From Corallococcus exiguus (GTDB taxonomy: Bacteria; Myxococcota; Myxococcia; Myxococcales; Myxococcaceae), in assembly GCF_009909105.1 (NCBI RefSeq), contig NZ_JAAAPK010000002.1:285827-349826 (forward strand): a stretch of 64,000 bases of DNA. Direction: 5' to 3'. Both the position numbers and the translations under genes were made by a program. The notes below the pieces were generated by a model, which was not told the origin of the DNA, ran no database searches, and worked only from the letters and a program-made list of their open reading frames with translations. This document shows, piece after piece, positions 39,464 through 55,150 of this stretch. Each line of letters opens with the position of its first letter. Within the stretch, counting starts at the first letter, position 1.

Positions 39464-39478
39464 CTCGCTCACCGGTCC

Positions 39479-39501
39479 ACGTGTCTCAATTCGAGACACG
39501 T
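39479..39501. promoter_or_regulatory. Perfect palindrome ACGTGTCTC-aattc-GAGACACGT downstream of serC and upstream of the polysaccharide genes. Terminator and/or operator.
   Basis: Read from the sequence. Shares the GTCTC...GAGAC core with sites at ~49315 and ~55076. Confidence 0.45.
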
Positions 39502-39546
39502 TCCGGTGAAGTTGCTCCCTGTGGCTGTGTTTGATTGTATTGCCCA

Positions 39547-40293
39547 ATGACTCCCACAGGGGCGAAGCGACTCTTCCGGGCCGTGGTGCCCGACGGCATC
39601 TATCAGTGGCTGTCTCATCACAAACGCCAGGTCTCCAGGGGGCGGGTGCGGTGGGGCAGCCTGGGCCGGCAGACGCCCATTGGCACGCACTGGGGGCACG
39701 ACCGCGGTCAGCCCATTGATCGCTATTACATCGAGCGCTTCCTGGCGCGGCACGCGGCTGACGTCCAGGGCCGAACGCTGGAGGTCGGGGACGCGCGCTA
39801 CACGCGGCGGTTCGGCGCCAGCCGCGTCACCCGCTCCGACATCCTCCACGCGCTTCCTGGGAACCCGGAAGCCACCTTCGTGGGAGACATCGCCCACGCG
39901 GTCGACATCCCCTCGGATGCGTTCGACTGCGTCCTCTTCACCCAGGTGCTGCAGTACGTCTTCGATGTCCAGGCCGCAGTGCGGGAACTGCACCGCATCC
40001 TCCAGCCTGGCGGCGTGGCGCTGCTGACCGTGCCCGGCATCATCAAGGTGGACTGGGGCGCGATGGAGCAGTGGCCGGACTGCTGGCGGTTCACCTCCCG
40101 CTCCGTCCACCGCCTCTTTGAGCAGTCCTTCGGCCCCGGCAACGTGCGGGTGGAGTCCTTCGGGAACGTCCGCGCCGCGGTCGCGACCCTGCACGGCCTG
40201 GCCCGGGAGGACCTGCGAACCGCCGACCTCGACGTGCATGACCCCCACTACGAAGTCGTCATCGGCGTCCGCGCCGTGAAGTCCCGGGGCTGA
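39547..40293 (+). CDS. Class I SAM-dependent methyltransferase.
   Basis: 'LEVGDARYTRRF' (motif I-like) and 'LQPGGVALLTVP' (motif III-like). A TTG at 39535 is an alternative start. Confidence 0.6.
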   Translation: MTPTGAKRLFRAVVPDGIYQWLSHHKRQVSRGRVRWGSLGRQTPIGTHWGHDRGQPIDRYYIERFLARHAADVQGRTLEVGDARYTRRFGASRVTRSDILHALPGNPEATFVGDIAHAVDIPSDAFDCVLFTQVLQYVFDVQAAVRELHRILQPGGVALLTVPGIIKVDWGAMEQWPDCWRFTSRSVHRLFEQSFGPGNVRVESFGNVRAAVATLHGLAREDLRTADLDVHDPHYEVVIGVRAVKSRG

Positions 40294-40347
40294 GCCACCG
40301 CGTCGGCCCACGCGCTACGGCATACGGGCTGCAATGGTCAGGGGTGC

Positions 40348-41850
40348 ATGGCCCCTGAGAGATCGCTCCTGAGGATGAGCGTCGACGTGCTCGCGTCGTG
40401 CGCTCGGCACGTGGTGCAGATCGTGACGGGGCTGGCGACGGTCGCGCTGGTGGTGCGTCTGCTCGGTCCGGAGAGCCTCGGCGCCTGGGGCGTCCTTGGC
40501 ACGACGGGCTTCCTCCTCGGGTTGTCGGACCTGGGCCTCAGCATCGCCGTCCAACGCACGGCGGCCAGACCGGACGATGCCGCCACGCGCCAGCTCATCC
40601 GCCTCACGCTGCTGGTGGTGACGCTCGTCTGTCCCTGTCTCTGCGTCTGTGCGTACGTGTTCTTCCTCCACCTCCCGTCCGCGTCCGAAGCGCTGCGGGC
40701 GGACGTGGCCCGCGCCGCGCTTCCGGTCCTCTCGGCAGGACTCGCGGGCTCGCTGGCGGCACCGTTGCGTGCGTTCCTGCTGATGCGGGGCGCCAACACC
40801 TCGCTCGCCTGGGCGCGCGCCATCGGAGCCGCGAGCCAGATTGCGTTGACGGCGGCGGTGCTCGGCACCACGCGCTCGTTGCTGGGGCCGGCGCTGGGGC
40901 TGTTCGCGGGAGGCACGCTGGAGCTCCTGCTCCTAGCGGCGGTGTCCAGGCGCATCGACCCGCACCTCTCGCTGCGTCCTGGATGGCCGGCGGATCCGGC
41001 CCAGGTGCGCAGCGCGTTCCGGCAGGGCGCCGCGGCCCTGGCCATGAACGTGGGCATCGCGGCGGCGGTCCGCGCGGATGTCCTCATCCTGACCCGCTCC
41101 GCGTCCCTGAGTTCGGTGGGCGCGTATCAGGTGGCCTCCCGCGCCGTGGAGCAGATCCTCGCCTTCGCGAAGCAAGCGGGCGGATGGCTCATCCATCGCC
41201 TCGGAGATGCCCGGCACCGCTCCAGCGCGCTTCGCCTTGGCACGGCCCTTCTGGGCGGCCTGGCCTCCAGCGGTGTCATCGCGCTGGCCCTGGATGGCAC
41301 CGCCCTGCTGGAGGCCTGGGTGGGCGCGCTCGCGCACGACTCCGTCACCATGCTCGCGGTCGTCCTCCTGGGCACCGCGGCGGTCATCGCGGCCGCCGAG
41401 GAGAGCGCGTCCTCGGCCCTGGCCGTGAGCGGTGAGACGCCGTGGCACCTGACCCACCCGGTGCTCATCGGCCACGCGCTGAACGTCGCCGTCTCCATGG
41501 CTGGGGTGCGGTACGCCGGTGCGTGGGCCGTCGCCGGGGGCACCGTCCTCGGAAACGGGGTCATCGCCGTGCTCGTCTGGCGCAAGGTCCGCGCCCTGGT
41601 CCAGTGGACCGTCCGGGAGGTGCTCTGGGCACTGGCCCCGGTCGGAGCCGCGGGCCTCGTGTCGTTCGTCGTGGGCTGGGGGCTCGCGCCGTTCGCCTCG
41701 CGGGGTCCGCTGGGGAGCGCCTGCGTCTGCGCGCTCGTCACGCTGCTGGGGACCGGGATGGCGCTGCTCGTCTGGTGGCGGCGGGATGCACGCCTCGCGG
41801 CGGCGGCATCCACTCCGGTGGGCGGCGCGGTGCCGACGTACGCGCCCTGA
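40348..41850 (+). CDS. Polysaccharide biosynthesis flippase (Wzx / MOP-family, polysacc_synt).
   Basis: About 12 hydrophobic segments. Composition and architecture typical of Wzx-like exporters. Confidence 0.65.
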   Translation: MAPERSLLRMSVDVLASCARHVVQIVTGLATVALVVRLLGPESLGAWGVLGTTGFLLGLSDLGLSIAVQRTAARPDDAATRQLIRLTLLVVTLVCPCLCVCAYVFFLHLPSASEALRADVARAALPVLSAGLAGSLAAPLRAFLLMRGANTSLAWARAIGAASQIALTAAVLGTTRSLLGPALGLFAGGTLELLLLAAVSRRIDPHLSLRPGWPADPAQVRSAFRQGAAALAMNVGIAAAVRADVLILTRSASLSSVGAYQVASRAVEQILAFAKQAGGWLIHRLGDARHRSSALRLGTALLGGLASSGVIALALDGTALLEAWVGALAHDSVTMLAVVLLGTAAVIAAAEESASSALAVSGETPWHLTHPVLIGHALNVAVSMAGVRYAGAWAVAGGTVLGNGVIAVLVWRKVRALVQWTVREVLWALAPVGAAGLVSFVVGWGLAPFASRGPLGSACVCALVTLLGTGMALLVWWRRDARLAAAASTPVGGAVPTYAP

Positions 41851-41853
41851 GGA

Positions 41854-42846
41854 CTACCGCAGCTTCTGCCAGAGGATGCGGAGCAGGAAGAGCGGATTGC
41901 CCAGCAGGTAGCGGACGGCCATCCGGCGGGGCTCCTGGAGCAGGCGATACATCCACTCCAAGCCCAGCTCACGCCAGGCGATGGGCGCGCGTTGGATCCG
42001 GCCCGAGTAGAAGTCGAACAGCCCTCCCACCGTGAGGATGACGGCCTGCGCGGCCCCGGAGAGGTACTCGCGCGCCCACAGCTCCTGCCGGGGGCTGCCC
42101 ATGCCCACCAGCACCAGGCAGGGGCCCAGCCGCGAGATGGACTCCGCCAGCGCGCGGGAGCCAGCGGCGGTGAGGAAGCCGTGCGAGACGATGGGGAGCT
42201 CCAGGCCCGGGTGGGCCCTTCGCAGGTTCTCCGCGCAGGCCTCCGCCACGCCGGGGGCCGCCCCCACCAGCACCACGGGCCAGCCTCGCGCGGGTGCGTG
42301 CTTGCAGAGCAGCGGCAACAGGTCCGTGCCGTTGAGGTTGTGGCGCATGGCCACGCCGAGCAGCGCCGCGCCCACCCGGATGCCAATGCCATCCGGAAGC
42401 ACCATGTCCGCTTCCGCCAGCGCCCGCGCGAGCGCCACGTCGCGTGCCGCCAGGTTCAAGGCGTGCGGGTGCACGATGGACACCAGCTTCGCGCGGCCAC
42501 CTTGTCCTTGCGTGAAGAGCTGCTCCACCGCCTGTTCGAGCGTGAGGTTGTCCACGCGGGCGGAGACGATGAACGGGCGCACTTCGGGCTGGGCGCTCTC
42601 GGGCGGTGCCAACGCGCGAGCCACCGACGTGCGCAACATCACTCCGAAGTCCGTCGCGGGGGTGCGGCCCTGGAGATAGCGCGCCTCCTCGGCGGCAAGG
42701 TCTCCATAAGGCAGTCCGAGCAGCCACCGCGCCTCCACCGGCGACAGGTAGCCGCGCGGCAGCACCTCGTTGAAGCGCGCGCCCACCAGCGGAGCGCGCC
42801 CGCGCAGGACGTCTCGCAGCGAGGCTCGGGGAAGGGGTGCCTTCAT
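41854..42846 (-). CDS. WecB/TagA/CpsF-family glycosyltransferase.
   Basis: 'VLPDGIGI...LVGMGSPRQELW...GLEWMYRLLQEPRR' family motifs. Its start overlaps the upstream stop. Confidence 0.75.
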   Translation of the reverse strand: MKAPLPRASLRDVLRGRAPLVGARFNEVLPRGYLSPVEARWLLGLPYGDLAAEEARYLQGRTPATDFGVMLRTSVARALAPPESAQPEVRPFIVSARVDNLTLEQAVEQLFTQGQGGRAKLVSIVHPHALNLAARDVALARALAEADMVLPDGIGIRVGAALLGVAMRHNLNGTDLLPLLCKHAPARGWPVVLVGAAPGVAEACAENLRRAHPGLELPIVSHGFLTAAGSRALAESISRLGPCLVLVGMGSPRQELWAREYLSGAAQAVILTVGGLFDFYSGRIQRAPIAWRELGLEWMYRLLQEPRRMAVRYLLGNPLFLLRILWQKLR

Positions 42847-43985
42847 CGAACACCTCCCACGGCGCGGCACAGGGCCAGCAGGTCGTCGCCCGTGCGGTCC
42901 CAGCTGCGCTGGCGGGCGTGCCCTGGACCTTCGCGCCGCACCCGCGCGGCCAGTGGCTCATCCCGCACCACCCGCGTCAGCGCCGCCGCCATGTCCCGCT
43001 CGTCGAGCGGATCGCACAACACCCCCAGCTCGCCCACCACCTCTGGAAGCGCACCCGCCCGGGCCGCCAGCACGGGCTTGCCCGCCGCGATGGCCTCCAG
43101 CGCTGGCAGGCCGAAGCCCTCGCACAGTCCCACCGCGATGAGCGCCTCCGCGCCCGCGACCAGGCCCGGGATGAGGCCGTCCTCCAGGTAGCCCAGGATC
43201 CTCACGCGCTCCTGGAGCCCCAGCCGCTGGAGCTCCTCCCGGATGAGCTGCTCGGCGCCCCAATCCGCGCCGGCCAGCACCAGCTGATGGTCCTGACTCA
43301 CCGGGGACGCGGCGAAGGCCCGCAGCAGTCGCAGGTGGTTCTTCCCCGGGTGCTCCAGGCGCGACAGGTACAGCAGATACGGCGCCTTCAAACCCAGTCG
43401 CTCACGGGCCCACGCGGCGCCAGCGCCGTCTCCGAGCGCGAAGCGGTCCGCGTCCACTCCGTTGGGAATGACGTGGATCCGCTCGGGCGCGCAGGACAGG
43501 AAGCTCACCATGTCCCCGCGCGTGGCCTGGCTGACGGCGGCCAGCGCCTCGAAGGACCTCAGCGCCTTGGGCAGAAGCCATCTCACGTAGGTGGTGCGCA
43601 GCCGGTCGTACTTGTCCGGCACGTTGAACTGGGCCAGGTCGTGCACCACGCCCACCGTGGGCAGGCCGGGCCGCAGCGCGACGCGGCGGTTGGCTGCGGG
43701 CAGCAGCAGCACGTCCGCCCCGGCCCCGCGCGCATGCGCTCCGCAGCGGGCGAGGTACCAAGATGCACCCAGCGCGGGCGTGTCGACGACGGCCGGTGCC
43801 ACGGCCCGCTCCGCGCCCACGAGCTCCGTGTCATACGCGGCGAAGTCCCGGGCCGTGCCGAGCGCCACCAGCCGGCCTCCGGTTCGCGCAAGCCCTCGTG
43901 TCAGCCGGGGCAGCATCGCGCGCACATACGTGCCAATGCCCGAGCGCCCCCAATCCGTTCCCCCCAGCGCGACGGCCAGCCTCAC
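42843..43985 (-). CDS. Glycosyltransferase family 4.
   Basis: C-terminal 'GLCEGFGLPALEAIAAGKPVLAA' (EX7E-type GT4 motif). GTG start overlapping the upstream stop. Confidence 0.7.
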   Translation of the reverse strand: MRLAVALGGTDWGRSGIGTYVRAMLPRLTRGLARTGGRLVALGTARDFAAYDTELVGAERAVAPAVVDTPALGASWYLARCGAHARGAGADVLLLPAANRRVALRPGLPTVGVVHDLAQFNVPDKYDRLRTTYVRWLLPKALRSFEALAAVSQATRGDMVSFLSCAPERIHVIPNGVDADRFALGDGAGAAWARERLGLKAPYLLYLSRLEHPGKNHLRLLRAFAASPVSQDHQLVLAGADWGAEQLIREELQRLGLQERVRILGYLEDGLIPGLVAGAEALIAVGLCEGFGLPALEAIAAGKPVLAARAGALPEVVGELGVLCDPLDERDMAAALTRVVRDEPLAARVRREGPGHARQRSWDRTGDDLLALCRAVGGVR

Positions 43986-44536
43986 GGAGCGGCCTCCCCG
44001 GGACGGGACGCCCGCACCACGCGCGCCGGCACGCCCACCGCCACGGACGCAGGGGGAATGGCCCCACGCACCACGCTGGCCGCGCCCACCAGGCACCCGT
44101 CGCCCACGGACGCGCCCGCCAGCACCGTCGTCCCGTTGGCCAGCACCACGCCCCGGCCAATGCGCGTGCCCGCGCCCCGCTGGACGGTGACGCCGTGGAG
44201 CAGGGTGCACTCCGGGCCAATCTCCACCCCATCGCCAATGACGATGTTGAAGGGGTGCGGCAGCCTCAAGCCGGGGCCGATATCATCCGTCCACACATCG
44301 ATGTGGAAGCCCACGCGCAACAGCGTGGACAGGCCCAGTGAAGTGCCCAGTCCGCGCCGGAGCACCGCCCCCCACCGCAGCAGGCCCACCGCCCATAAGG
44401 ACGGATCCGCCAGGGCCGCGGCTCTGGGAAAGCGCGCCCCCCGGTCCCTGACCGCATCCACCACCCGGGCCCTGTCCGAACGCAGGGCGCGCAACGGCTC
44501 CATGCAGGCATGGATTGACTTCGCTGACGCACGCAT
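43982..44536 (-). CDS. Hexapeptide-repeat acetyltransferase (WcaF/serine-acetyltransferase-like).
   Basis: 'IGDGVEIGPECTLLHGVTV...IGRGVVLANGTTVLAGASVGDGCLVGAASVV' left-handed beta-helix repeats. Confidence 0.7.
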   Translation of the reverse strand: MRASAKSIHACMEPLRALRSDRARVVDAVRDRGARFPRAAALADPSLWAVGLLRWGAVLRRGLGTSLGLSTLLRVGFHIDVWTDDIGPGLRLPHPFNIVIGDGVEIGPECTLLHGVTVQRGAGTRIGRGVVLANGTTVLAGASVGDGCLVGAASVVRGAIPPASVAVGVPARVVRASRPGEAAP

Positions 44537-44886
44537 GGGCGGCTGCCGCTTGCAAGGCAGGAACCATGGCGTCGCACGCGCTGCCGGTGCGTGTCAGGTC
44601 GCCTCGGGCCTGTCTGCGTCCCGAACTGGGATGTCTCATCTGGGGACGCCGGGATGTCCCAAACGTAGACAACGCCGGGATTTGTCAAACAGGCCAGAGG
44701 ACAAGTCGTTGGCCGAGCGCATCCGGATCAACCAGAGGGGATGTCTCGACATGCGGGAATGGTCTGTGCAAACGGATGCGTTTGCTGTCCCGCGTACTCC
44801 GATGTGCGAGTGCCCGGCCTCGCGCATCACCGGGACCGGAGGCGTGCTCCCGTCAAGCGCATCCCCCTGTCAGGAGACCCGAAACC

Positions 44887-46302
<1,416 letters not shown>

Positions 46303-46328
46303 CACGCTCCCCGGTGCGCGAGGCGTCG

Positions 46329-47261
46329 TCATCGGGAGAGCCCCAGCAGGCGCAACGCCGCTCGCGACAGGAGCCGGCGCCGCGCGAGCAACAGGGGATC
46401 TCCCAGCGGGAGCAGGGGACCGGTGCCCTCCAGTGAGGCCAGTCCGTCGGGGGTGGCGATGGCATCGCGCACCTCCAGGCCCTCGCCCACCACGGTCTCC
46501 TCTTCCACCACGGCGTTCACCAGACGGGTGCCGCGCTCGATGATGGCGCGCGCTCCAATGAGCGCCCCCGGACCGATCCGCGCTCCGGCGCACACGAGCG
46601 CCTGGGGGCCGATGAGCACGGGAGGGTTCACCTCGGCGCCGCGCTGGAGGAGGGCGCCGCGCGCCACCCAGACCCCCGGTGCCCGCTCAGCCGCGTGGAT
46701 GAGGAGCCGCGAGGTTCCTTCCGCCCGCGGCAGCCGCCCCAGCAGCGCCTTGCAGGCCAGCCGCAGGGCCGCGCCCGGAGTCTCCAGGCGCGCGCCCCAC
46801 CCGGGCAGCTCCTCCTCCGTGACGGGACCGGTGGCAGCGGTGATCAGGTGCACCTCGGCTGGCGCGAAGGGCTCCACGGCCGGTGGTGGCGTCAGCCGGC
46901 CCACGCGCACGCCCCGCTCTGGCGCCCGGCGGTAGAAGGCCGCGAGGTCCGCGTTGCCCAGGACGGTGTCCGGCACCACGAGGAAGGGCGCGTGGGCGGG
47001 AAAGCCCGCCGAGTCCGCGATGACGCCCGGCGGAAACAGCGAAGCCGTGGGGACGAAGACGACGTTGCGGGCCAGCGACTCCTGCTGTGAGACGAGGCTG
47101 CGCAGCTCCTCTCCATGGGCGCCCGCGCCGATGTCGATGGCCACCTTCTCGAAGCCCGACGCGCGCAGCCACTGCAGCTGGCGGGTGACGAGCGGGGGCC
47201 CGGCCACGGACAGGAACCCGGCGCCAGGAGCCGCGGCGCTGCGATGGATGACGGCGAACAT
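46329..47261 (-). CDS. Sugar-nucleotidyltransferase-like protein with a C-terminal hexapeptide-repeat region.
   Basis: 'AIDIGAGAHGEEL' NTP-transferase-like N-terminus. C-terminal 'IGPQALVCAGARIGPGALIGARAIIERGT' hexapeptide repeats. Confidence 0.55.
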   Translation of the reverse strand: MFAVIHRSAAAPGAGFLSVAGPPLVTRQLQWLRASGFEKVAIDIGAGAHGEELRSLVSQQESLARNVVFVPTASLFPPGVIADSAGFPAHAPFLVVPDTVLGNADLAAFYRRAPERGVRVGRLTPPPAVEPFAPAEVHLITAATGPVTEEELPGWGARLETPGAALRLACKALLGRLPRAEGTSRLLIHAAERAPGVWVARGALLQRGAEVNPPVLIGPQALVCAGARIGPGALIGARAIIERGTRLVNAVVEEETVVGEGLEVRDAIATPDGLASLEGTGPLLPLGDPLLLARRRLLSRAALRLLGLSR

Positions 47262-47340
47262 GGTGTCGTCGGTTCCGTTCCTGGGGGGCCCGCCGGACGG
47301 AGGGCTGCCCTGTGATGACGCGCGCGAAGGCGTCTTCCTC

Positions 47341-49200
47341 TCAGCGCGGCTCCTTTCGCGGGAAGGGCCCTTCCATGCCCCTCGACGCTCCGGAGCCGGA
47401 CCAGAAGCCCATGACGTCGCCCACGCGATCCGGATGGGTAGCAAGGTCGGTGCCGAGCCCCACCACCACGAAGCCGACGCACGCCTCGCTCCCGAGCAGG
47501 CGCCGCAGCGCCCACACTTCGAACACGGAGTGCGCGCCGGAGCTGGCGAGGACGAGCACCCGCGCTCCCTTGCGGACCGCTAGTCGCAGCGCCTGCGGAC
47601 GCCGAGCCTCCTCCCAAGACACGAGCGTCGCGCCTCGTCCCGGGACGTCATCCCGGGCTGGGACGTCCGTTGCCCCAAGCCGGGACAGCAGCTCCCGGGT
47701 CCGCTCCTGCTGCGATTCCCCGAGCGGCAACACCCGCGTCACGCCGCTCGCCTCGTCCAGCGCGGTCCGGAGCTCCACGACGAGCTCCTCCAGGCCTTCA
47801 GCGGTGGCGGGCCAGGGAGTGGCGGCCACCACCGGGCCGCGTCCCCAGAACGAGAACTCGGCCGGCGTCCACAGCTTGAAGCCGCGCAGCGAGGAAGCGG
47901 TGAGGGCCACCACGGCTAGCAGCGCGAAGAAGGGAGGCAGCAGCAGGGCCACCGCGCGCCGGTAGGACTTCGAGGGACGCGTCGGCGGGGTGGCGGAGGT
48001 GAGCACGCGCAGCTCCATCTCGGGCTGGCGCACCTCGCCCTCCACCACCTTCTGACGCTGCTGGAGTTCGGTGAGGCGCGTCTCGGTGATGTGGATCCGC
48101 GCGAGCAGCGCACTGGCCTGGCCCTCCAAAGCGGAGAGCCGTGCGATGCGCTCCTTCGCGGCCTCCTCCGCTTCGGCGTAGGCGCGCCACTTCTTCTGGG
48201 CCAGCTCCCGCTGCGAACCGGCGTCCAGCAGGCTGTTCTGGAGGAAGGTCCAGGAGGGGTTGGTCCCCACGACGCGGTCGGAGACGGTGCCACCCGCGGG
48301 CCGGGACTCCAGGGCCCGCACGGCGGCGGTGAGCTGCACCACCTCGGGATGTTCCATGGAGAGATTGGCTCCGCGGGCGGCGAGCTCCGCGCGCAGCTCG
48401 GCCAGCTTGCGCAGCTCGAAGTAGCTCTCGGTCTCCGACAGCACCATCCGGCTGGGCTGCTCACGGGCCGCCTGCTTCAGCAACAGCGCCCTGGCGTCCG
48501 AGGACTCCGCTTCGATGCGGAAGCGGTTCTTCTCGGTGCGCAGCCGCGCCGCCTCCTCGATGGAGGACTGCCGGTCGAGCGTGAGCTCCGCGATGCCGTT
48601 CTCCTGGCGGAAGCCGTCGTAGTGCGCCCGGGCCTCCTCCAGCTGCGCCTGGACCTTGAGCACCTCCTCGCCCAGCGCCTTCAGCTGCGCCTCGGCCCGA
48701 GTCCGCTCCGAGTCCCGCTGATGGTCCAGGAACACCTGGGTCATGGCGTCGGAGAGCCGGACGGCCTCCTCGGGGCTCGCTGCGGTCGCGGAGAGGGTGA
48801 GGATGTTGGAGCCGCGGGACACGGCGATGTCCACCCGCCGGGCCAGCGCCTCCAGGGTCACCGGCAGGCCCGTGCGCGTGCGCAGCGCCTCCAGGTTGTT
48901 GGGGAGCTTGAGCGTGTCCATCAGCGTCTGGATCTCCCGCTCGGGGTTCGCCGCCGCGCGCGAGCCCGTGGGCTCCCAGACGAGAATGGTGCGAGCGGTG
49001 AACTCGCGGGGCATCACGGTCTTGGCCAGCAGCACGCCCAGGACGATGCCCGCGACGAAGCACCCGCCGATGATCCGCCAGCGGCGCCGCAGCACCCGCG
49101 CGATGCGCAGGGGATCAACGGGATACCCGGAGCGCACCGACTCCTGTCGCACGGGCGCCGTCTGCGTTTCGGGCTCCGGGCCCTCTTCCAGCGAGAACAT
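47341..49200 (-). CDS. Polysaccharide co-polymerase (Wzz/GumC/Wzc-family PCP). No Walker A is visible in the C-terminal domain.
   Basis: N-terminal TM 'IIGGCFVAGIVLGVLLA', long coiled-coil periplasmic region, second TM 'LLLPPFFALLAVVAL'. Confidence 0.65.
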   Translation of the reverse strand: MFSLEEGPEPETQTAPVRQESVRSGYPVDPLRIARVLRRRWRIIGGCFVAGIVLGVLLAKTVMPREFTARTILVWEPTGSRAAANPEREIQTLMDTLKLPNNLEALRTRTGLPVTLEALARRVDIAVSRGSNILTLSATAASPEEAVRLSDAMTQVFLDHQRDSERTRAEAQLKALGEEVLKVQAQLEEARAHYDGFRQENGIAELTLDRQSSIEEAARLRTEKNRFRIEAESSDARALLLKQAAREQPSRMVLSETESYFELRKLAELRAELAARGANLSMEHPEVVQLTAAVRALESRPAGGTVSDRVVGTNPSWTFLQNSLLDAGSQRELAQKKWRAYAEAEEAAKERIARLSALEGQASALLARIHITETRLTELQQRQKVVEGEVRQPEMELRVLTSATPPTRPSKSYRRAVALLLPPFFALLAVVALTASSLRGFKLWTPAEFSFWGRGPVVAATPWPATAEGLEELVVELRTALDEASGVTRVLPLGESQQERTRELLSRLGATDVPARDDVPGRGATLVSWEEARRPQALRLAVRKGARVLVLASSGAHSVFEVWALRRLLGSEACVGFVVVGLGTDLATHPDRVGDVMGFWSGSGASRGMEGPFPRKEPR

Positions 49201-49314
49201 CCGGTGAGGACGGCTGCACGGTGGATGCCAGTGTCCAGCCAGCTTGGGTGGGCGCGGGTGGCGGAGCTCTTGCAATGCCAGACACCGTCGCGGACGGCGG
49301 GAGCGCTCGGAGCC

Positions 49315-49329
49315 GTCTCACATTGAGAC
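49315..49329. promoter_or_regulatory. Palindrome GTCTCA-cat-TGAGAC in the divergent promoter region between the PCP gene and the alkaline-phosphatase-family gene.
   Basis: Read from the sequence. Same GTCTC/GAGAC core as the sites at 39479 and 55076. Confidence 0.45.
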
Positions 49330-49335
49330 AGAACC

Positions 49336-50559
49336 ATGTCCCGGGAAGAGATGACACCAGGAGGAGACAGCGCCGGGGCACGGCACTTCCGGCCGCGTCG
49401 TGTGCTCGTGGTCTTCGTCGATGCGCTGGGCCCGTCCCAGCTGGAGACCTTCGAAGGGCTGCGTGGGTTGCCGCACCGGGGCCGCCTGCGCGGCATCCTC
49501 GGCTATTCATGTGGAGCCCTGCCGACGATCCTCACCGGCGCGCCGCCGGAGCGGCACGGGCGGATGTGCCTCTTCGCGCACGCGGAGCGCGAGGACGAAG
49601 GCGTGCTGTCGCCGCTGAGGTGGCTGGGGCTGTTGCCGCGCCAGGTGCATGAGCGGGGCATGCTGAGGCGTGCCGCGGCGCGGGTGCTGAAGAGGACGGA
49701 GGGGCTGACCGGGTACGTGGACCTGTACCGAGTCCCTCCGGAGCTGTTCCGCTGGCTCGACCTGCCGGAGCGTGAGGACCTGTTCAACGCCGAGCGCATC
49801 GGCGGGGTGGAGACGTTCCTCACGAAGGCGAGGCGCGCGGGCCTGCGCGTGTTCGCGGCGCCGTGGCAGATGCCGGAGGAGGAGCGCTGGGCGCACACCT
49901 GCGCGGTGTTACGGGCGAGCAAGCCGGACCTGGCCTTCGCGTACGCCACCGCCCTGGACGGCGCCCTGCACCGTACGGGCAACGGCAGCCAAGACGCGCT
50001 CGCGACGGCCCGGCGGCTCACCGAGCGGATCGAACAGACGGTGGATGCGATGCGCGCGGGCGGAGGTGACGTGACGACGGTGATGGTGGGGGACCACGGG
50101 ATGGCGGACATCCACGAGGTGGTGGATCCAAAGCGGATGCTCGGGGAGCTGCTAGGTACGCGGCTGTTCGTGGACAGCACGATGCTGCGGGTCTGGGGTG
50201 ATGAGCGGACGCGCGAGAAGGCCCGCGAGCGGATGGTGGCGCACGGGCTCCCGGGGAGATGGCTGGACACGGAGGCGCTGGTGGAGCGACAGGCGCCGGT
50301 GCGGGGTGCTCCTTACGGACAAGCCCTCTTCGTGCTGCGGGAAGGAGCCCTGTTCGCCCCCAGCTTCGTGGGCGGCAACGTGCGAGGCATGCACGGCTAC
50401 GACGTGGACAGCCCCTCGGCGTATGCCGCCATCGCCTCGGATGCGCCGCTGCCCCGGGACCGAGGCGCGCTGATGGACGTGGCCGGATGGGTGTGCGCGA
50501 TGCTGGGGCTGGAAGGGGAGACGAACCCGGACGGGAGGCCGCCATGGGCCGCGGCTTGA
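49336..50559 (+). CDS. Alkaline-phosphatase-superfamily protein (type I phosphodiesterase / nucleotide pyrophosphatase-like).
   Basis: 'VLVVFVDALGPSQL' metal-ligand N-terminus. 'VMVGDHGM' near the C-terminus. Confidence 0.6.
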   Translation: MSREEMTPGGDSAGARHFRPRRVLVVFVDALGPSQLETFEGLRGLPHRGRLRGILGYSCGALPTILTGAPPERHGRMCLFAHAEREDEGVLSPLRWLGLLPRQVHERGMLRRAAARVLKRTEGLTGYVDLYRVPPELFRWLDLPEREDLFNAERIGGVETFLTKARRAGLRVFAAPWQMPEEERWAHTCAVLRASKPDLAFAYATALDGALHRTGNGSQDALATARRLTERIEQTVDAMRAGGGDVTTVMVGDHGMADIHEVVDPKRMLGELLGTRLFVDSTMLRVWGDERTREKARERMVAHGLPGRWLDTEALVERQAPVRGAPYGQALFVLREGALFAPSFVGGNVRGMHGYDVDSPSAYAAIASDAPLPRDRGALMDVAGWVCAMLGLEGETNPDGRPPWAAA

Positions 50560-51731
50560 GGGTCGCATGGCTCAACGACGCCGCCACCCCCGTGGGCGGC
50601 GCCGAGCGCTACGTGCGAGAGACCGCGCGGGAGCTGCGCGGGCGGGGAGTGACGTCGCTGCTCTTCTACGACGTGAACGTCTCGCCGGATCCGCACCCGG
50701 TGATGCGGGAGCCGTTCGAGGGCATCTTCCCCATCGTCGACCTGGCGCGGCAGCTGAGGGAGCTGGCGCCGGACGTCGTCTACGTGCACCAGCTCGCGAG
50801 CCTGAACGCGCAGCGCGCACTGTTGGATTCGCCAGCGCCGGTGGTCCGCTTCTTCCACGACCACCGGCTGTTCTGCCTGCGCGAGCACAAGTACACGACG
50901 CTGGGAAAGGAGCCCTGCACGAAGCCGGTGGGCGCGGCCTGCTACCCATGTCTCGGCTTCGTGGGCCGTTCAGGGGACTGGCCCGGGCTGAAGTGGGCCT
51001 CGCTGGGGAGGTTGCGGGAGGAGCAGGCGCTGGCCCGGAGTCATCACGCCTTCGTGGTGGGCTCGCGGTACATGGCGGACCACGTGGCGGCGCATGGCTT
51101 CCCGCGCGAGCGGACGCACGTCATCCCGCTGTACGCGCAAGCTCCGCTTCAGTCGCAGGTGCAGGTGGAGCGAGAGGAGGACCTGCTCCTGTTCGTAGGG
51201 CAGCTGACGACAGGCAAGGGCCTGGATGTGCTGTTCCACGCGCTGACACGCACCACTCAGCCGTGCCGACTGGCGGTAGTGGGAAGGGGCCGGCAGGAGG
51301 AGGAGCTGCGCGCGAAGGTGGACGTGCTGGGGTTGTCGAAGCGGGTGGCCTTCCTGGGCCCGATGGCGCCCGAAGCGCTCTCCGAGCAGTACCGGCGGGC
51401 CGCGTGTGTCGTCTTCCCCAGCCGAGCGCCGGAGACGTCCGGACTGGTGGGCATCGAAGCACTGGCGCACGGGACGCCAGTCATCGCCAGCCAGGTGGGC
51501 GGAGTGGGGGAGTGGCTGACGGAAGGCGAGACGGGGCTGGGCGTGCCGCCAAATGATCCGGAGGCGCTCGCGGAGGCGATCGACAGGCTGATGGCGGCGC
51601 CGGGCCTGAGGAGGACGATGGAGGCACACGCGCGAAGGACCTACGAGGAGCGCTTCGTCCCCGAGCGGCACGTGACGAGGCTTCTGGCTCTGCTGGAGTC
51701 GGTGGCGGGCGCGGGAGGGAGGGCGGCGTGA
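50544..51731 (+). CDS. Glycosyltransferase family 4.
   Basis: 'ETSGLVGIEALAHGTPVIASQVGG'. Confidence 0.7.
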   Translation: MGRGLRVAWLNDAATPVGGAERYVRETARELRGRGVTSLLFYDVNVSPDPHPVMREPFEGIFPIVDLARQLRELAPDVVYVHQLASLNAQRALLDSPAPVVRFFHDHRLFCLREHKYTTLGKEPCTKPVGAACYPCLGFVGRSGDWPGLKWASLGRLREEQALARSHHAFVVGSRYMADHVAAHGFPRERTHVIPLYAQAPLQSQVQVEREEDLLLFVGQLTTGKGLDVLFHALTRTTQPCRLAVVGRGRQEEELRAKVDVLGLSKRVAFLGPMAPEALSEQYRRAACVVFPSRAPETSGLVGIEALAHGTPVIASQVGGVGEWLTEGETGLGVPPNDPEALAEAIDRLMAAPGLRRTMEAHARRTYEERFVPERHVTRLLALLESVAGAGGRAA

Positions 51732-52936
51732 GGGACGGACGCTTCACGTTGAAGGGCTCGCCCGAGGTGGAGGCGAGGATCTCCCAGGTGGTGTCAGAAG
51801 CGGCGGCCGTCATCCACGGGCACGTGCGCCCGGACGAGCTGCGGACGCTGGCCCTCATTGGCGGCTACGGGCGCGGTGAGGGAGGAGTGGAGAAGAGGGA
51901 CGGCGTCGAACGGCCGCACAACAACCTCGACTTCCTCCTGGTGCTGGAGCGAGCCCCGCGAGAGGGGCTGAAGGCGCGGCTGGACCTGGTGCTGGAGCCG
52001 CTGCGCGAGCGGCACGGGCTGGGGTTGGACCTGGGCGTGACGACGGTGCGGGCGCTGCGAAGGTCCCCGTGTCAGGTCATCTGGTACGACATGCGGTTCG
52101 GCCACAAGACGGTGGCGGGGGATGCGTCGTTCCTTCCGGGGCTCGAGCACTTCACGCGAGAAGCCATCCCACCCGACGACGTGCGGAACCTGGCGGTGAA
52201 CCGGGGCACGCTGCTGATCATCAACCAGGTGCTGCGGGACCAGGGCGCACTGGGCGAGGACGCGCGCCGCACGATCCTCCGGCACACGGCGAAGGCCATC
52301 ATCGGCTACGGCGACGCGCTGCTGTACTTCCTGGGTGCATACGACTGGAGCTACGCGGAGAAGCGGCGGCGGATGGCGCTGCGGCACGACGTGCCGGCCG
52401 GATTCCGCAAGCTGTACGACGAGGCGAGCGCCTTCCGCTTGGAGCCGGACTACGCGCGCTTCGCCCCAAGCGAGCTGGGGCCCTGGATGGACGAGGGGAG
52501 GGCGAGGCTCGCGGAGGTGCACCTTACGTGTGAGGCCGCGAGGCTATCGGTGCCCGGGCTGAAGTGGTCCGGATACGCGGAGCGGGCGTTGAAGCACTCC
52601 CTCAAGGAGGGCGGCCTCCAACCGAAGGTCTGGCTGCGTCGGGTGCGCAACGGCGTGAGGTTCCGGCCAAAGGCTTCACCCGAGCTGGGGCTCCGAGCGC
52701 GGTTGGGGCTAAGGCTCGGAGGGCCGCGAGGGGGGTTGGCGGCGGCGTTCCCCTTCGTGGCGTTCGAGGTGGGCGGGCCCCAGGACGCCGAGTTCGCGCG
52801 GCAGCTGCTGCGAGCCGCGAGCCGCGAGCCAGCGGACTTGCGGCGCGCCTATCTGAGGTACTGGGGCGAGTCGGGAGACCCCAACTTCGCGCACGTGGCG
52901 AGGAAGCTCGGCCTGCGCCTGGGGGACCAATCATGA
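51728..52936 (+). CDS. Hypothetical protein with a nucleotidyltransferase-like N-terminal motif.
   Basis: 'LIGGYGRGEGG...NLDFLLV'. GTGA-coupled upstream and ATGA-coupled downstream. Confidence 0.45.
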   Translation: MRDGRFTLKGSPEVEARISQVVSEAAAVIHGHVRPDELRTLALIGGYGRGEGGVEKRDGVERPHNNLDFLLVLERAPREGLKARLDLVLEPLRERHGLGLDLGVTTVRALRRSPCQVIWYDMRFGHKTVAGDASFLPGLEHFTREAIPPDDVRNLAVNRGTLLIINQVLRDQGALGEDARRTILRHTAKAIIGYGDALLYFLGAYDWSYAEKRRRMALRHDVPAGFRKLYDEASAFRLEPDYARFAPSELGPWMDEGRARLAEVHLTCEAARLSVPGLKWSGYAERALKHSLKEGGLQPKVWLRRVRNGVRFRPKASPELGLRARLGLRLGGPRGGLAAAFPFVAFEVGGPQDAEFARQLLRAASREPADLRRAYLRYWGESGDPNFAHVARKLGLRLGDQS

Positions 52937-53826
52937 GTCGCAAGGTCACTGTCATCATGCGCTCGAAGGACTCTGCCTGGGTCATAGGCCAGGCGCTCTC
53001 CGGCCTGTTCTCGCAGGCGCGCAAGGACTTCGAGTTGCTCGTGGTGGACTCGGGCTCCAGGGACGCGACGCTGGACATCGTCTCGCGCTTCCCCTGCCAA
53101 CTGATCCGCATCGACGCCGGGGCGTACTTCCCAGGCGTGGTGCTCAACCGGGCCATCCGCGAAGCGCAAGGCGACATCATCGTCTTCCAGAACTCCGACG
53201 TGGTGCCGCTGACGCCGCAGGCGCTGGACCGGTTGCTGGAGCCCATTGAGCGCACCGATGCGGACGCGACCTTCGCGCGGCAGCTGCCGAGGCCGGAAGC
53301 GCACACGTGGGTGCGAAGGGATTACGAGGTCGCGTTCCCGGAGCAGGGAACTCCGCCGCCGTGGATGACGTACTCGCTGCCGTTCGCGGCGATGACGCGG
53401 GATGCGTGGCTCAAGCACCCGTTCTACGAGGACGCGTGGGGCTCCGAGGACACGGAGTGGGGACACCGGGCGCGAGGCGACGGGCTCCGGGTGCGCTACG
53501 TGCCGGACGCGTGGGTGATGCACTCGCACAACTACACGCTGAAACAGTTGTACGGGCGCCGCTTCATCGAAGGAGAGGCGGATGCCTTCATCCGGGAGGA
53601 GCCCGCGTCGCTGACGGGACTGGCCCGGAAGCTGGGCGCGTCATGGGCAAGGGATGCGGTCGTGCACATCCGGGCGCGCGACGCCGCGGGCCTGGCGCTC
53701 TCCGTTCCCCGGAGGCTCGTGTACCACTGGGCTTATTGGAAGGGACACCAGTGGGGAGAGCAGCGCCTGCGGAGCGGGAACGCGGACGCGAGCGTCGGTC
53801 AGCGGGTGGTGCTGCGGAGGCAGTGA
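52933..53826 (+). CDS. Glycosyltransferase family 2.
   Basis: 'VTVIMRSKDSAWVI...ELLVVDSGSRDAT' and a 'D.D'-type motif region. Confidence 0.7.
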   Translation: MSRKVTVIMRSKDSAWVIGQALSGLFSQARKDFELLVVDSGSRDATLDIVSRFPCQLIRIDAGAYFPGVVLNRAIREAQGDIIVFQNSDVVPLTPQALDRLLEPIERTDADATFARQLPRPEAHTWVRRDYEVAFPEQGTPPPWMTYSLPFAAMTRDAWLKHPFYEDAWGSEDTEWGHRARGDGLRVRYVPDAWVMHSHNYTLKQLYGRRFIEGEADAFIREEPASLTGLARKLGASWARDAVVHIRARDAAGLALSVPRRLVYHWAYWKGHQWGEQRLRSGNADASVGQRVVLRRQ

Positions 53827-55004
53827 GCTTGAGCCGCATCGAGTAGCAGTTCCTCGATGCCGCGAACGTAGGCGTCGAGTGACGCGTGTTCTCGCACGAT
53901 GTCGAGCGCCCGCTGGACGAGCACCTCCTGTGCCGCCGCGTCCCGGTGGAGGGCCGCCAGCGCCTCGGCGAAGGCTTCACCCGTGCACGCCTTCACCAGC
54001 AGCGAAGCGTCGTGCCGATCAAGGAAGTCACGGGCACCGCCGCTGGGGGACGCCGCCACCGGCAGGCCGCAGGCCATGGCCTCCAGATACGTGAGGCCCT
54101 GGCCCTCGTGCTCCAGCTTTGACGCGAACAGGAGCGCATCCGCATCCTGATACAGCGGAAGCAACTGCTCGCGGGGAAGTTGCCCGGCCCATGCCACGCG
54201 TCCGTCTACCCGCAGCACCCGCGCCCGTTGCCGCAAGGACGTGAGATAGGCCGGATCGTCCGCCGCGCCCGCGAGCGTGAGGGTGGCCTTGACGCCGCGC
54301 TTCTCCAAGGCCGCCAGGGTGTCGATGGCCGCATCGGGGGCCTTGCTCGGATGGAGCCGGCCGACGAAGAGCAGCCGAGGCTCCGGGCGCATGGGCCGGA
54401 AGGGACGAGGGGTGAAGCGCGACAGGTCCACGCCCTGTGGCCGCACGACACCGAAGTCCAGCGGCACACCCGCCGCGAGGCACGTGCGCCGGACCGCGTC
54501 CGAAAGCCACGCGACCCCTGCGGGCTGGATGCCGGTCCAAGTTCGTGAAGGCACCAGCAGCGAATCGAGCACGCTGCCCAGCCGAGCCCAGGGCCGCGCG
54601 TCGCGCCCCACGCTGAACGCCACCGGCCAGTCGTCGTTCACCGTGACGATCGCGGGGACGCCTGCCTCGTGGAGCACCCGCAGCGGCGCGAGCCCCAGTC
54701 TCCGCAGGCTCATGACCAGCACCGCATCCGGCCTGCCATGGTCCTTCAAGTAGCGGCGCACCGCCGCCGTGTTCCGCGCACCAGCCGCGAAGTGACGGAG
54801 GCGATCCCGTCCCGCGGGCCGGCCGAAGCGGCGAGCCAGGCGCAGGGACCGCAGCACGCGCCCGTTCTCGGAGCCATCGCCGCTGGTGAGGACGTCGACC
54901 TCGTGGCCGCGTCGCTCCAACCCCTCCACCACATCTCGTGCGAGCAGCTCGTAGCCGCCGAGGACGTCGGGCGGGTACAGGTTGGTAAGGACGGTGACTC
55001 TCAC
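53799..55004 (-). CDS. Glycosyltransferase family 4.
   Basis: 'KLEHEGQGLTYLEAMACGLPVAAS'. GTG start inferred. Confidence 0.65.
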   Translation of the reverse strand: MRVTVLTNLYPPDVLGGYELLARDVVEGLERRGHEVDVLTSGDGSENGRVLRSLRLARRFGRPAGRDRLRHFAAGARNTAAVRRYLKDHGRPDAVLVMSLRRLGLAPLRVLHEAGVPAIVTVNDDWPVAFSVGRDARPWARLGSVLDSLLVPSRTWTGIQPAGVAWLSDAVRRTCLAAGVPLDFGVVRPQGVDLSRFTPRPFRPMRPEPRLLFVGRLHPSKAPDAAIDTLAALEKRGVKATLTLAGAADDPAYLTSLRQRARVLRVDGRVAWAGQLPREQLLPLYQDADALLFASKLEHEGQGLTYLEAMACGLPVAASPSGGARDFLDRHDASLLVKACTGEAFAEALAALHRDAAAQEVLVQRALDIVREHASLDAYVRGIEELLLDAAQAHCLRSTTR

Positions 55005-55070
55005 GGGCAGGCCCTTCAGCTTGCAGGGGACATGCCTCCCCGCGAGCTGACTCCTTGCCCATGCACCGCC

Positions 55071-55110
55071 CGGATGTCTCGCATTGAGACGTCTCGGAAT
55101 GGGAATGGGG
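55071..55110. promoter_or_regulatory. GGATGTCTC-gcatt-GAGACGTCTC palindrome followed by a tandem GGAATGGGAATGGGG, in the divergent GT4/GT4 promoter region.
   Basis: Read from the sequence. Shares motifs with 44620-44760 and 49315. Confidence 0.45.
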
Positions 55111-55150
55111 AAGGAGGGACGCCGCGGGTGGGGCGCGGAGTGTCTGGTCC

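What the first reader, a model, noticed from the sequence alone, without database searches (positions are those of the whole stretch)
39479..55110. Recurring GTCTC-N3-5-GAGAC palindromes and GGATGTCTC / GGGAATGG motifs in promoter regions of the polysaccharide locus
Three perfect palindromes share a GTCTC...GAGAC core:
- 39479-39501, ACGTGTCTCaattcGAGACACGT;
- 49315-49329, GTCTCAcatTGAGAC;
- 55076-55090, GTCTCgcattGAGAC.
All three precede plus-strand gene blocks, and two lie in divergent promoters. The region upstream of the NtrC-like gene (44620-44760) contains GGGATGTCTCA, GGGATGTCCCA and GGGGATGTCTCGACATGCGGGAATGG. The 55071 site reads GGATGTCTCG...GGAATGGGAATGG. GGGAATGG also occurs next to a palindrome (ATGGAGGC-N-GCCTCCAT, ~61787-61815) in the kelch-lipoprotein promoter. 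This looks like a shared operator set for one regulator.
Basis: seen in the sequence. Interest (0 to 1): 0.55.

Follow-up and report, generated by a model that had tools for sequence, protein, structure and literature searches.

The report
Shared sigma-54 enhancer sites, polysaccharide cluster
The recurring GTCTC-N5-GAGAC palindromes are real, evolutionarily conserved protein-binding sites lying beside sigma-54 promoters of a myxobacterial polysaccharide gene cluster, most likely the docking sites of the NtrC-type activator encoded in that cluster; this is a new example of a well-known kind of control.

Summary
All three palindromes exist as described. They share one architecture (GTCTC-N5-GAGAC) and occur 3 times against 0.26 expected. 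They belong to a 17-bp dyad, yGTCTCR-N3-YGAGACr, which recurs at orthologous intergenic positions in all 10 related clusters fetched, from Corallococcus to Polyangia. 21 of 29 hits fall in the 3.8% of sequence that is cluster-intergenic (p ~6e-24). Units come singly, in pairs 15 or 22-23 bp apart, or in 15-bp tandem arrays of 3-4.

The sites lie 47-131 bp from conserved sigma-54 promoters (GG-N10-GC), often between divergent pairs: hexA/activator, wzz/pde, GT4c/GT4d.

GGGAATGG is not part of it. At 44755 it is the -24 element of the activator gene's sigma-54 promoter, at 55101 a degenerate arm, and at 61790 unrelated.

Best reading: upstream activating sequences for the cluster-encoded NtrC-like activator, with autoregulation. 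Binding is inferred, not shown.

Side findings:
- Promoters sit about 14 nt before start codons, implying near-leaderless mRNAs.
- The receiver domain has Glu in place of the phospho-accepting Asp.
- The same dyad occurs next to perfect sigma-54 promoters in unrelated marine contigs.

Verdict: a new member of a known kind, of moderate interest.

The parts
39483..39497 (.). Site A: perfect unit GTCTCAATTCGAGAC. Extended palindrome 39479-39501, embedded in a 39-nt hairpin 39470-39508 just after the serC stop.
   Evidence: PWM 25.3 bits. Orthologous sites upstream of the methyltransferase gene in L001, L002 and L005. RNA fold -25.2 kcal/mol, z -6.5. No canonical sigma-54 promoter follows it in the window. 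In L001, CGGCATGGTGCTTGCC follows at about 70 bp.
40318..40333 (+). Candidate sigma-54 promoter of the flippase (wzx) gene, CGGCATACGGGCTGCA, 14 nt before ATG 40348.
   Evidence: Conserved in L003 (CGGCATATGGACTGCA) and L004 (CGGCATACAAGCTGCA). No unit within 300 bp; site A is 829 bp upstream.
44551..44566 (-). Sigma-54 promoter of the hexapeptide-transferase/GT4/WecG operon, TGGTTCCTGCCTTGCA, 14 nt before ATG 44536.
   Evidence: Conserved in L001, L003, L004, L006, L007, L008 and L044.
44618..44670 (.). Site E: three degenerate units shared by the divergent promoters. GTCCCGAACTGGGAT at 44618, GTCTCATCTGGGGAC at 44633, GTCCCAAACGTAGAC at 44656.
   Evidence: 12.4 and 16.6 bits; the third unit is 1 mismatch in the 98% relative L005. 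The orthologous position holds 1-4 units in most related loci but none in L009: 15-bp tandem arrays of 4 (L001), 3 (L002) and 2 (L003). Unit centres lie 60-98 bp from the hexA promoter and 93-131 bp from the activator promoter.
44743..44747 (.). Promoter-proximal lone half-site GTCTC (within GGGGATGTCTCGACATGCGGGAATGG), abutting the -24 element.
   Evidence: A similar GGATGTCTCCGCGTGCGGGAATGG occurs in L004 but not in L003. Role unclear.
44755..44770 (+). Sigma-54 promoter of the activator gene, GGGAATGGTCTGTGCA.
   Evidence: GGAAYGG-N4-TGCA is conserved in L001-L004, L006-L008 and L044 amid diverged flanks.
44878..46302 (+). NtrC-type enhancer-binding protein (receiver, AAA+ sigma-54 activator, Fis-type HTH). 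It is the only regulator conserved in the cluster.
   Evidence: Pfam. GAFTGA, Walker A/B and R-finger are intact. Best solved relatives are NtrC4, ZraR and NtrC1. Glu replaces the phospho-acceptor Asp.
49215..49230 (-). Sigma-54 promoter of the Wzz-like (chain-length) gene, TGGCATCCACCGTGCA, 14 nt before ATG 49200.
   Evidence: Orthologues: TGGCACCCGCCGTGCA (L003), TGGCACACCAGGTGCA (L007), TGGCATACGGGGTGCA (L008), TGGCATACCGGGTGCA (L044).
49259..49274 (+). Candidate sigma-54 promoter TGGCGGAGCTCTTGCA, inside a ~75-bp remnant of a deleted wza gene.
   Evidence: Identical in L003. Homologous to wza coding sequence TGGCGGAYGTCTTGCA in L001 and L004 (alignment A2). Functional status uncertain.
49315..49352 (.). 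Site B: unit B1 GTCTCACATTGAGAC (49315-49329) and unit B2 GTCCCGGGAAGAGAT (49338-49352), 23 bp apart. The ATG at 49336 lies between them.
   Evidence: 26.9 and 14.0 bits. A unit at the wza/pde junction is present in 9 of 10 related loci (absent from the truncated cluster of L006; only 12.7 bits in L008), even where it overlaps the wza stop codon. In L007, L008, L009 and L044 a sigma-54 promoter (CGGCACTCTTCRTGCA / CGGCATCGCCCATGCA) follows. Unit centres are 93 and 116 bp from the wzz promoter, the same as E3 and E2 from the activator promoter.
55022..55037 (-). Sigma-54 promoter of the minus-strand GT4 gene, AGGCATGTCCCCTGCA, 16 nt before GTG 55005.
55076..55105 (.). Site C: unit C1 GTCTCGCATTGAGAC, directly followed by degenerate unit C2 GTCTCGGAATGGGAA.
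   Evidence: 26.7 and 11.0 bits. Orthologues at L003 19162 and L005 18533. Centres are 47/62 bp and 63/48 bp from the two divergent promoters.
55145..55160 (+). Sigma-54 promoter of the plus-strand GT4 gene, TGGTCCATGAATTGCG, 14 nt before ATG 55175.
   Evidence: L003 has TGGTCCGCGAATTGCC 14 nt before its annotated start.

Best explanation
The GTCTC-N5-GAGAC palindromes are units of a 17-bp dyad, yGTCTCR-N3-YGAGACr. They most likely serve as upstream activating sequences (enhancers) for a sigma-54-dependent activator, probably the NtrC-type protein encoded in the cluster (44878-46302).

Inferred mechanism:
- Dimers of the activator bind the dyads through the C-terminal Fis-type helix-turn-helix.
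- Neighbouring units, 15 or 22-23 bp apart, help assemble the AAA+ ring.
- The ring contacts sigma-54 RNA polymerase held at GG-N10-GC promoters 47-131 bp away, by DNA looping, and uses ATP to open them.
- One site cluster placed between two divergent promoters serves both.
- Because site E lies upstream of the activator's own sigma-54 promoter, the circuit is positively autoregulated.

Shown here: the motif, its conservation and its restriction to the cluster; the conserved sigma-54-type promoters; and an activator with all catalytic motifs. Inferred: which protein binds, and that binding activates transcription.
For: 1. The motif is not chance: 3 against 0.26 expected.

2. It is confined to the cluster. 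In 190 kb from 7 lineages, 21 of 29 hits with at most 1 mismatch lie in the 3.8% that is cluster-intergenic (binomial p 6e-24). The 29 composition-matched control palindromes give 0-2 such hits.

3. Positions are conserved, arms are invariant and spacers vary, in Corallococcus, Pyxidicoccus, Cystobacter-like and Polyangia loci. Tandem arrays occur upstream of the activator gene.

4. An independent prediction test on L044 was positive for site E, site B and three promoters.

5. Conserved GG-N10-GC promoters flank the sites. Five sit 14-16 nt before start codons, against 0.16 expected (p 7e-7).

6. The geometry is typical of enhancers, and identical (93 and 116 bp) at two promoters.

7. No sigma-70-type promoter is found in the 16-kb cluster, so an enhancer-binding protein is obligatory. 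The cluster's only conserved regulator is one, with GAFTGA, Walker A/B and HTH_8.

8. In unrelated metagenome contigs the same dyad in tandem lies beside consensus-perfect sigma-54 promoters. In L034 it lies directly downstream of a homologous activator gene.

9. The motif is a symmetric dyad, as expected for a dimeric helix-turn-helix protein.
Against: - No binding or expression data exist; the assignment to this particular activator rests on co-localisation.
- Some sigma-54-like promoters of the cluster have no unit within 300 bp: wzx in the window, wza in L006-L008, and the methyltransferase in L004.
- Site A in the window has no recognisable sigma-54 promoter downstream.
- Site B in the window lies downstream of one candidate promoter and straddles the putative start codon, which is unusual for an enhancer.
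- The helix-turn-helix is nearly identical in paralogues (L010, L011) whose neighbourhoods lack the motif, so the protein sequence gives no specificity argument.
- L009 has a second activator gene next door.
- My sigma-54 score is a simple consensus match in 70% GC DNA and is noisy outside intergenic regions.
Confidence: 0.68

Rival explanations
1. The dyads are operators for a different dimeric transcription factor, a repressor or a co-activator encoded outside the cluster. It would modulate the sigma-54 promoters, while the activator either acts from solution or binds other DNA.
For: - A symmetric 17-bp dyad fits many helix-turn-helix families.
- Site B straddles a start codon and lies downstream of a candidate promoter, a repressor-like position.
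- Some cluster promoters lack nearby units.
- A protein with a sigma-70 region-4-type HTH is encoded near the cluster in the window (37342-38331) and in L006.
Against: - No other regulator gene is conserved with the cluster across L003, L004, L007-L009 and L044.
- Distances of 47-131 bp from the -24 elements and placement between divergent sigma-54 promoters fit enhancers, not steric operators.
- The same dyad accompanies sigma-54 promoters and an activator gene in unrelated bacteria.
Confidence: 0.17
2. The palindromes act as RNA hairpins (terminators, processing sites or translational elements), not as DNA sites.
For: - Site A folds into a very stable hairpin right after the serC stop (-25.2 kcal/mol, z -6.5).
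- Site B sits 6 nt before an ATG in six lineages.
- The tandem array of L001 folds strongly (z -4.6).
Against: - The arms are conserved in sequence with no compensatory changes. The outer pair is broken in several orthologues (ATCTC...GAGAC, TTCTC...GAGAC).
- Site B alone is not more stable than shuffles (z -0.33).
- There are no U-tracts and the terminator scan does not hit the sites.
- Site E lies upstream of both flanking promoters, so it would not be transcribed.
- No Rfam family matches.
Confidence: 0.07
3. The palindromes are chance occurrences, or a dispersed repeat family (REP/MITE-like) with no regulatory role.
For: Short palindromes are common in GC-rich genomes. The window alone holds only three perfect copies.
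Against: - 0 of 100 shuffles reach 3.
- There are no perfect copies in the other 48 kb of the window.
- The motif holds conserved orthologous positions across families and classes of Myxococcota.
- Control palindromes show no such enrichment.
Confidence: 0.02

Closest known systems
NtrC-type enhancers at sigma-54 promoters, such as glnAp2 of enteric bacteria, and the divergent zraP-zraSR region bound by ZraR (established knowledge, from memory)
   Same: Dyad-symmetric sites for a dimeric Fis-type HTH. There are two or more sites per promoter, about 50-150 bp upstream of a GG-N10-GC promoter. The sites can be shared by divergent promoters, and the activator gene is autoregulated. ZraR and NtrC4 are the closest solved relatives of the protein.
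   Different: The recognition sequence differs (GTCTC-N5-GAGAC). Units are packed at 15-bp or 22-23-bp intervals. The targets are polysaccharide biosynthesis genes. The promoters lie about 14 nt from start codons.
NorR three-site enhancer at norVW (PMC2831303)
   Same: Several short inverted repeats upstream of a sigma-54 promoter act together as an enhancer for one activator.
   Different: The NorR sites are GT-N7-AC, at a single promoter. Here one motif is spread over at least four regions of a 16-kb cluster.
Myxococcus xanthus Nla28 and Nla6 enhancer-binding proteins (PMC9765219)
   Same: These are myxobacterial NtrC-like activators that bind tandem short repeats near sigma-54 promoters. 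Some of their targets are cell-envelope genes, and they autoregulate activator genes.
   Different: The Nla28 half-site is CT(C/G)CG(C/G)AG in imperfect direct repeats, and most of its target promoters are intragenic. Here the motif is an inverted repeat in intergenic DNA.
EpsI/Nla24 of the M. xanthus eps locus (PMC4877007, PMC7484181)
   Same: An NtrC-like activator encoded inside a Wzx/Wzy-type polysaccharide locus and needed for its expression. Its DNA site is not reported in the papers read.
   Different: The window cluster is not the canonical eps locus. The gene order differs. Whether Nla24 uses the same dyad is untested.
FleQ and VpsR, c-di-GMP-responsive NtrC-like regulators of exopolysaccharide genes (as discussed in PMC4877007)
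   Same: They are AAA+ / Fis-HTH regulators of polysaccharide operons with atypical receiver domains. Both appear among the solved relatives.
   Different: FleQ and VpsR act at least partly at sigma-70 promoters. c-di-GMP binding was not tested here. Here the targets carry sigma-54-type promoters.

Membership tests
Sigma-54 enhancer (UAS) plus enhancer-binding-protein regulon | -24/-12 promoter (GG-N10-GC, TGGCAC-N5-TTGC-like) near the sites | tested here: met
   Six or seven candidate promoters in the window, conserved in orthologues. Five lie 14-16 nt before start codons, against 0.16 expected.
Sigma-54 enhancer (UAS) plus enhancer-binding-protein regulon | Dyad-symmetric or repeated sites, usually two or more, tens to about 150 bp upstream of the promoter | tested here: met
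   Symmetric PWM. Paired or tandem units. Distances of 47-131 bp. Exceptions: site A, and site B relative to the 49259 promoter.
Sigma-54 enhancer (UAS) plus enhancer-binding-protein regulon | A cognate activator with an AAA+ domain, a GAFTGA loop and a DNA-binding HTH | tested here: met
   Pfam Sigma54_activat, AAA_lid_14 and HTH_8. GAFTGA and Walker motifs are invariant. Homology to NtrC4, ZraR and NtrC1.
Sigma-54 enhancer (UAS) plus enhancer-binding-protein regulon | Direct binding of the activator to the sites, and rpoN- and activator-dependent transcription | not testable with these tools
   Needs EMSA, footprinting, ChIP and mutant expression data.
Intrinsic terminator or structured RNA element | Stem maintained by compensatory changes; a U-tract for terminators; a match to a known RNA family | tested here: not met
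   Arms are sequence-invariant and the outer pair is broken in orthologues. No U-tract and no terminator-scan hit. No Rfam hit. Only site A forms an unusually stable hairpin.
Dispersed repetitive extragenic palindromes (REP/MITE-like) | Many copies scattered through intergenic regions regardless of gene function | tested here: not met
   In about 190 kb, 21 of 29 hits lie in cluster-intergenic DNA. There are none in the flanks of the window or in the paralogue loci L010 and L011. A whole-genome scan was not possible.
M. xanthus eps locus / EpsI-Nla24 regulon | Orthology to MXAN_7440 with the adjacent kinase MXAN_7439, and eps gene order | tested here: inconclusive
   No kinase lies next to the activator. 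The M. xanthus sequence itself could not be fetched for a direct comparison.
Nla28-type sites | 8-bp half-site CT(C/G)CG(C/G)AG in tandem | tested here: not met
   The motif here is GTCTC-N5-GAGAC. The Nla28 consensus is taken from PMC9765219.

The most novel reading that the evidence does not exclude
The dyad TCTCR-N3-YGAGA may mark an undescribed, widely distributed class of sigma-54 enhancer and activator. In Myxococcota it wires a whole polysaccharide pathway through bidirectional enhancers and near-leaderless sigma-54 mRNAs. In this lineage it is driven by an activator whose receiver carries Glu instead of the phospho-accepting Asp. In unrelated ~46-50% GC marine bacteria the same dyad forms arrays of up to about ten units around consensus-perfect, convergent sigma-54 promoters upstream of a sigma-factor gene.
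Probability: 0.3. Interest if true: 0.5.

Novelty: new member of a known kind. Interest (0 to 1): 0.38.

Why it matters
- It gives a concrete, testable binding motif and promoter map for an uncharacterised myxobacterial polysaccharide cluster and its NtrC-like regulator. For the related model regulator EpsI/Nla24, the papers read give no DNA site.
- It predicts a compact regulon: at least four site clusters and six to seven sigma-54 promoters, with positive autoregulation.
- It suggests that sigma-54 promoters can be placed to give almost leaderless mRNAs.
- The motif could be used to find further members of the regulon, and to ask whether similar enhancers operate in other phyla.

Tried and rejected
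- Genome-collection scan with a single protein. The pattern also has too few fixed bases for that tool.
- P0017 (Archangium gephyra) was not on record.
- Rfam search of 38.5-62.5 kb: no hit.
- RNA-hairpin reading. Only site A is unusually stable, there is no covariation, and the outer pair is broken in orthologues. Rejected as the general explanation.
- Sigma-70 promoter and terminator scan: no promoter, and no terminator at the sites.
- GGGAATGG as a shared motif. Rejected: -24 element at 44755, degenerate arm at 55101, no site near 61790.
- Kelch-side palindrome as part of the set. No unit in 61780-62094. It lies in the kelch 5' leader.
- Equating the cluster with the M. xanthus eps locus. 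Not supported.
- Helix-turn-helix comparison as a specificity test. Uninformative, because the recognition helix is nearly invariant even in paralogues without the motif.
- My first sigma-54 consensus scan of the whole window was too noisy in coding DNA to use without conservation and position filters.
- Literature searches for the motif itself found nothing.


Full report
**Observation**

All three have the form GTCTC-N5-GAGAC. The pattern GTCTC-N3-5-GAGAC matches only these three places in 64 kb. The expectation is 0.26, and 0 of 100 dinucleotide shuffles reach 3.

GGATGTCTC occurs three times against 0.6 expected. GGGAATGG occurs seven times against 1.7 expected, but four copies lie in coding or unrelated DNA. 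The upstream region of the NtrC-like gene reads as described. The kelch-side palindrome is at 61794-61819.

**Context**

The window is 70% GC. Positions 39.5-58.7 kb hold a Wzx/Wzy-type polysaccharide cluster:
- methyltransferase, flippase, WecG-type transferase, GT4 and hexapeptide transferase;
- an NtrC-type activator (receiver, sigma-54 AAA+ domain, Fis-type HTH);
- a second hexapeptide protein, a Wzz-like protein and an alkaline-phosphatase-family protein ('pde');
- GT4, an unknown protein, GT2, two more GT4 genes and Wzy.

The activator is 98% identical to one from Corallococcus sp. CA041A. It is 88% identical to Pyxidicoccus, then drops to about 62-65% in Cystobacter/Archangium-like organisms and 55% in a Polyangia genome. 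The cluster is not the canonical M. xanthus eps locus. There is no kinase next to the activator, and no Myxococcus protein was named among the 120 listed hits.

**Comparative test**

I fetched 10 related clusters: L001-L009 and L044. The motif recurs at orthologous places.
- Upstream of the activator gene it is found in most loci, though not in L009. It forms 15-bp tandem arrays of four units (L001), three (L002) and two (L003).
- At the wza/pde junction it is found in 9 of the 10 fetched loci, even where it overlaps the wza stop codon.
- Upstream of the plus-strand GT4 gene it is found in L003 and L005.
- Upstream of the methyltransferase gene it is found in L001, L002 and L005.

The arms are invariant and the spacers vary. 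A PWM from 26 sites gives a symmetric dyad, yGTCTCR-nnt-YGAGACr.

In 190 kb from seven lineages, 21 of 29 hits with at most 1 mismatch lie in the 3.8% that is cluster-intergenic (p 6e-24). The 29 composition-matched control palindromes give 0-2 such hits. Paralogous activators in other contexts (L010, L011) have no hit. L044, fetched last as a prediction test, shows site E, site B and the expected promoters.

**What GGATGTCTC and GGGAATGG are**

In the arrays the junction between units reads GAGAT|GTCTC. GGATGTCTC is therefore a left arm preceded by the (often degenerate) right arm of a neighbouring unit.

GGGAATGG at 44755 belongs to GGGAATGGTCTGTGCA. The form GGAAYGG-N4-TGCA is conserved in every orthologue that has the activator's upstream region. 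It has the GG-N10-GC spacing of a sigma-54 promoter. At 55101 the string is the degenerate right arm of a second unit, GTCTCGGAATGGGAA. At 61790 no unit is nearby.

**Promoters**

Conserved sigma-54-type promoters flank the sites:
- hexA(-) at 44566-44551;
- activator(+) at 44755-44770;
- wzz(-) at 49230-49215;
- GT4c(-) at 55037-55022;
- GT4d(+) at 55145-55160;
- wzx(+) at 40318-40333;
- a candidate at 49259-49274.

The last one lies in a ~75-bp remnant of a deleted wza gene. No sigma-70-consensus promoter is found in 39.4-55.3 kb.

Unit centres lie 47-131 bp from the -24 GG:
- 60, 75 and 98 bp for hexA;
- 93, 116 and 131 bp for the activator;
- 93 and 116 bp for wzz;
- 47/62 and 63/48 bp for the two GT4 genes.

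In L007, L008, L009 and L044, site B is followed by CGGCACTCTTCRTGCA or CGGCATCGCCCATGCA and then the pde start. That is a canonical enhancer-promoter pair.

**Mechanism**

Sigma-54 promoters cannot fire without an enhancer-binding protein. The cluster's only conserved regulator is such a protein, with intact GAFTGA, Walker A/B and HTH_8. The only recurrent element near the promoters is the dyad.

The most economical reading is that the dyads are its upstream activating sequences. They would be shared by divergent promoters, and the activator would stimulate its own gene. This is inference: nothing here shows binding.

Caveats:
- Several cluster promoters have no unit within 300 bp.
- Site A in the window has no canonical promoter after it. 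The corresponding L001 promoter appears broken here by a 7-bp insertion.
- In the window, site B lies downstream of the 49259 candidate promoter and straddles the putative ATG.

**Rivals**

An RNA-hairpin role fits only site A, which forms a strong 39-nt hairpin after serC. The other evidence is against it:
- there is no covariation, and the outer pair is broken in orthologues;
- site B is not more stable than shuffled sequence;
- there is no Rfam hit.

A different, unlinked regulator cannot be excluded. Chance is excluded.

**Beyond Myxococcota**

A metagenome scan for two tandem units found 31 contigs. Thirteen are contigs of about 41-56% GC, most of them 46-50% and apparently marine. In several of them, arrays of up to about ten TCTCA-N3-TGAGA units surround a TTGACA-N17-TATGAT promoter. 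These arrays adjoin two convergent, consensus-perfect sigma-54 promoters upstream of a small ORF and a sigma-70-family gene.

In L034 a PAS-AAA+-HTH_8 activator is 43% identical to the window protein. Its gene is followed by a terminator, two to three units, a sigma-54-like promoter and a thioredoxin gene. This independently links the dyad to sigma-54 control.

**Comparison with known systems**

The architecture is that of NtrC-, ZraR- or NorR-type enhancers. The sequence differs from the Nla28 half-site. I found no paper describing this motif. In the papers I read, no DNA site for EpsI/Nla24 is reported.

**Verdict**

It is a new member of a known kind, of moderate interest. Three side observations may deserve follow-up: near-leaderless sigma-54 transcripts, a Glu-for-Asp receiver, and the cross-phylum recurrence of the dyad.

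Noticed in passing
window 40318-40347, 44537-44566, 49201-49230, 55006-55037, 55145-55174; also L001, L003, L004, L006-L009, L044: Sigma-54-type promoters end 14 nt (four cases) or 16 nt (one case) before the start codons of five cluster genes. The expectation is 0.16 (p 7e-7). The same 11-14 nt spacing holds at independently annotated starts in other genera. This implies 5' leaders of only about 4-5 nt, that is, near-leaderless sigma-54 mRNAs.
   Followed up: partly
window 44878-46302 (receiver domain, motif CLELVLDD): The phospho-accepting Asp of the receiver domain is replaced by Glu in the window protein and its close relatives (P0002, P0003, P0005). It is Asp in the more distant orthologues and in Aquifex NtrC4. 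No histidine kinase is encoded next to the gene.
   Followed up: partly
L018, L021, L025, L030-L033, L036, L037 (marine metagenome contigs, ~46-50% GC): Dense arrays of up to about ten TCTCA-N3-TGAGA units surround a TTGACA-N17-TATGAT promoter. They lie next to two convergent, consensus-perfect sigma-54 promoters (TGGCACGGACCTTGCA / TGGCACGCTTCTTGCT), upstream of a 112-aa ORF and a sigma-70-family gene.
   Followed up: partly
L034 92-1700: A PAS-AAA+-HTH_8 activator, 43% identical to the window protein, is followed by a terminator hairpin, two to three units, TGGCATACATCTTGTA and a thioredoxin-like gene.
   Followed up: partly
window 49231-49335: The wzz/pde intergenic region is a ~75-bp remnant of the 3' end of a wza (polysaccharide export) gene. 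That gene is intact in L001, L002, L004, L007-L009 and L044 and deleted in the window, L003 and L005. The sigma-54-like TGGCGGAGCTCTTGCA inside it is preserved.
   Followed up: partly
window 39470-39508 and 39520-39546: Site A is embedded in a 39-nt imperfect hairpin immediately after the serC stop (-25.2 kcal/mol). The methyltransferase upstream region looks like the L001 sigma-54 promoter interrupted by about 7 bp (TGGCTGTG[TTTGATT]GTATTGCC).
   Followed up: partly
window 61794-61819 and 62009-62043: ATGGAGGC/GCCTCCAT lies in the 5' leader of the kelch-repeat gene and pairs an SD-like GGAGG with CCTCC. A perfect hairpin with 14-bp arms follows the upstream minus-strand gene and looks like a terminator. 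Neither is related to the dyad.
   Followed up: partly
window 21786-29834 (-): A 2682-residue protein carries an annexin repeat (Pfam PF00191, E 5e-21). Nearby are a ~3058-residue beta-helix protein (1706-10882) and a Ser/Thr kinase (33528-36284).
   Followed up: no
L043 9937: A paralogous activator (56% identity, with an adjacent hybrid kinase, in a different polysaccharide context) has a single weak unit, CGTCCCGGTACGAGACG (14.3 bits), 64 bp upstream of its start.
   Followed up: no
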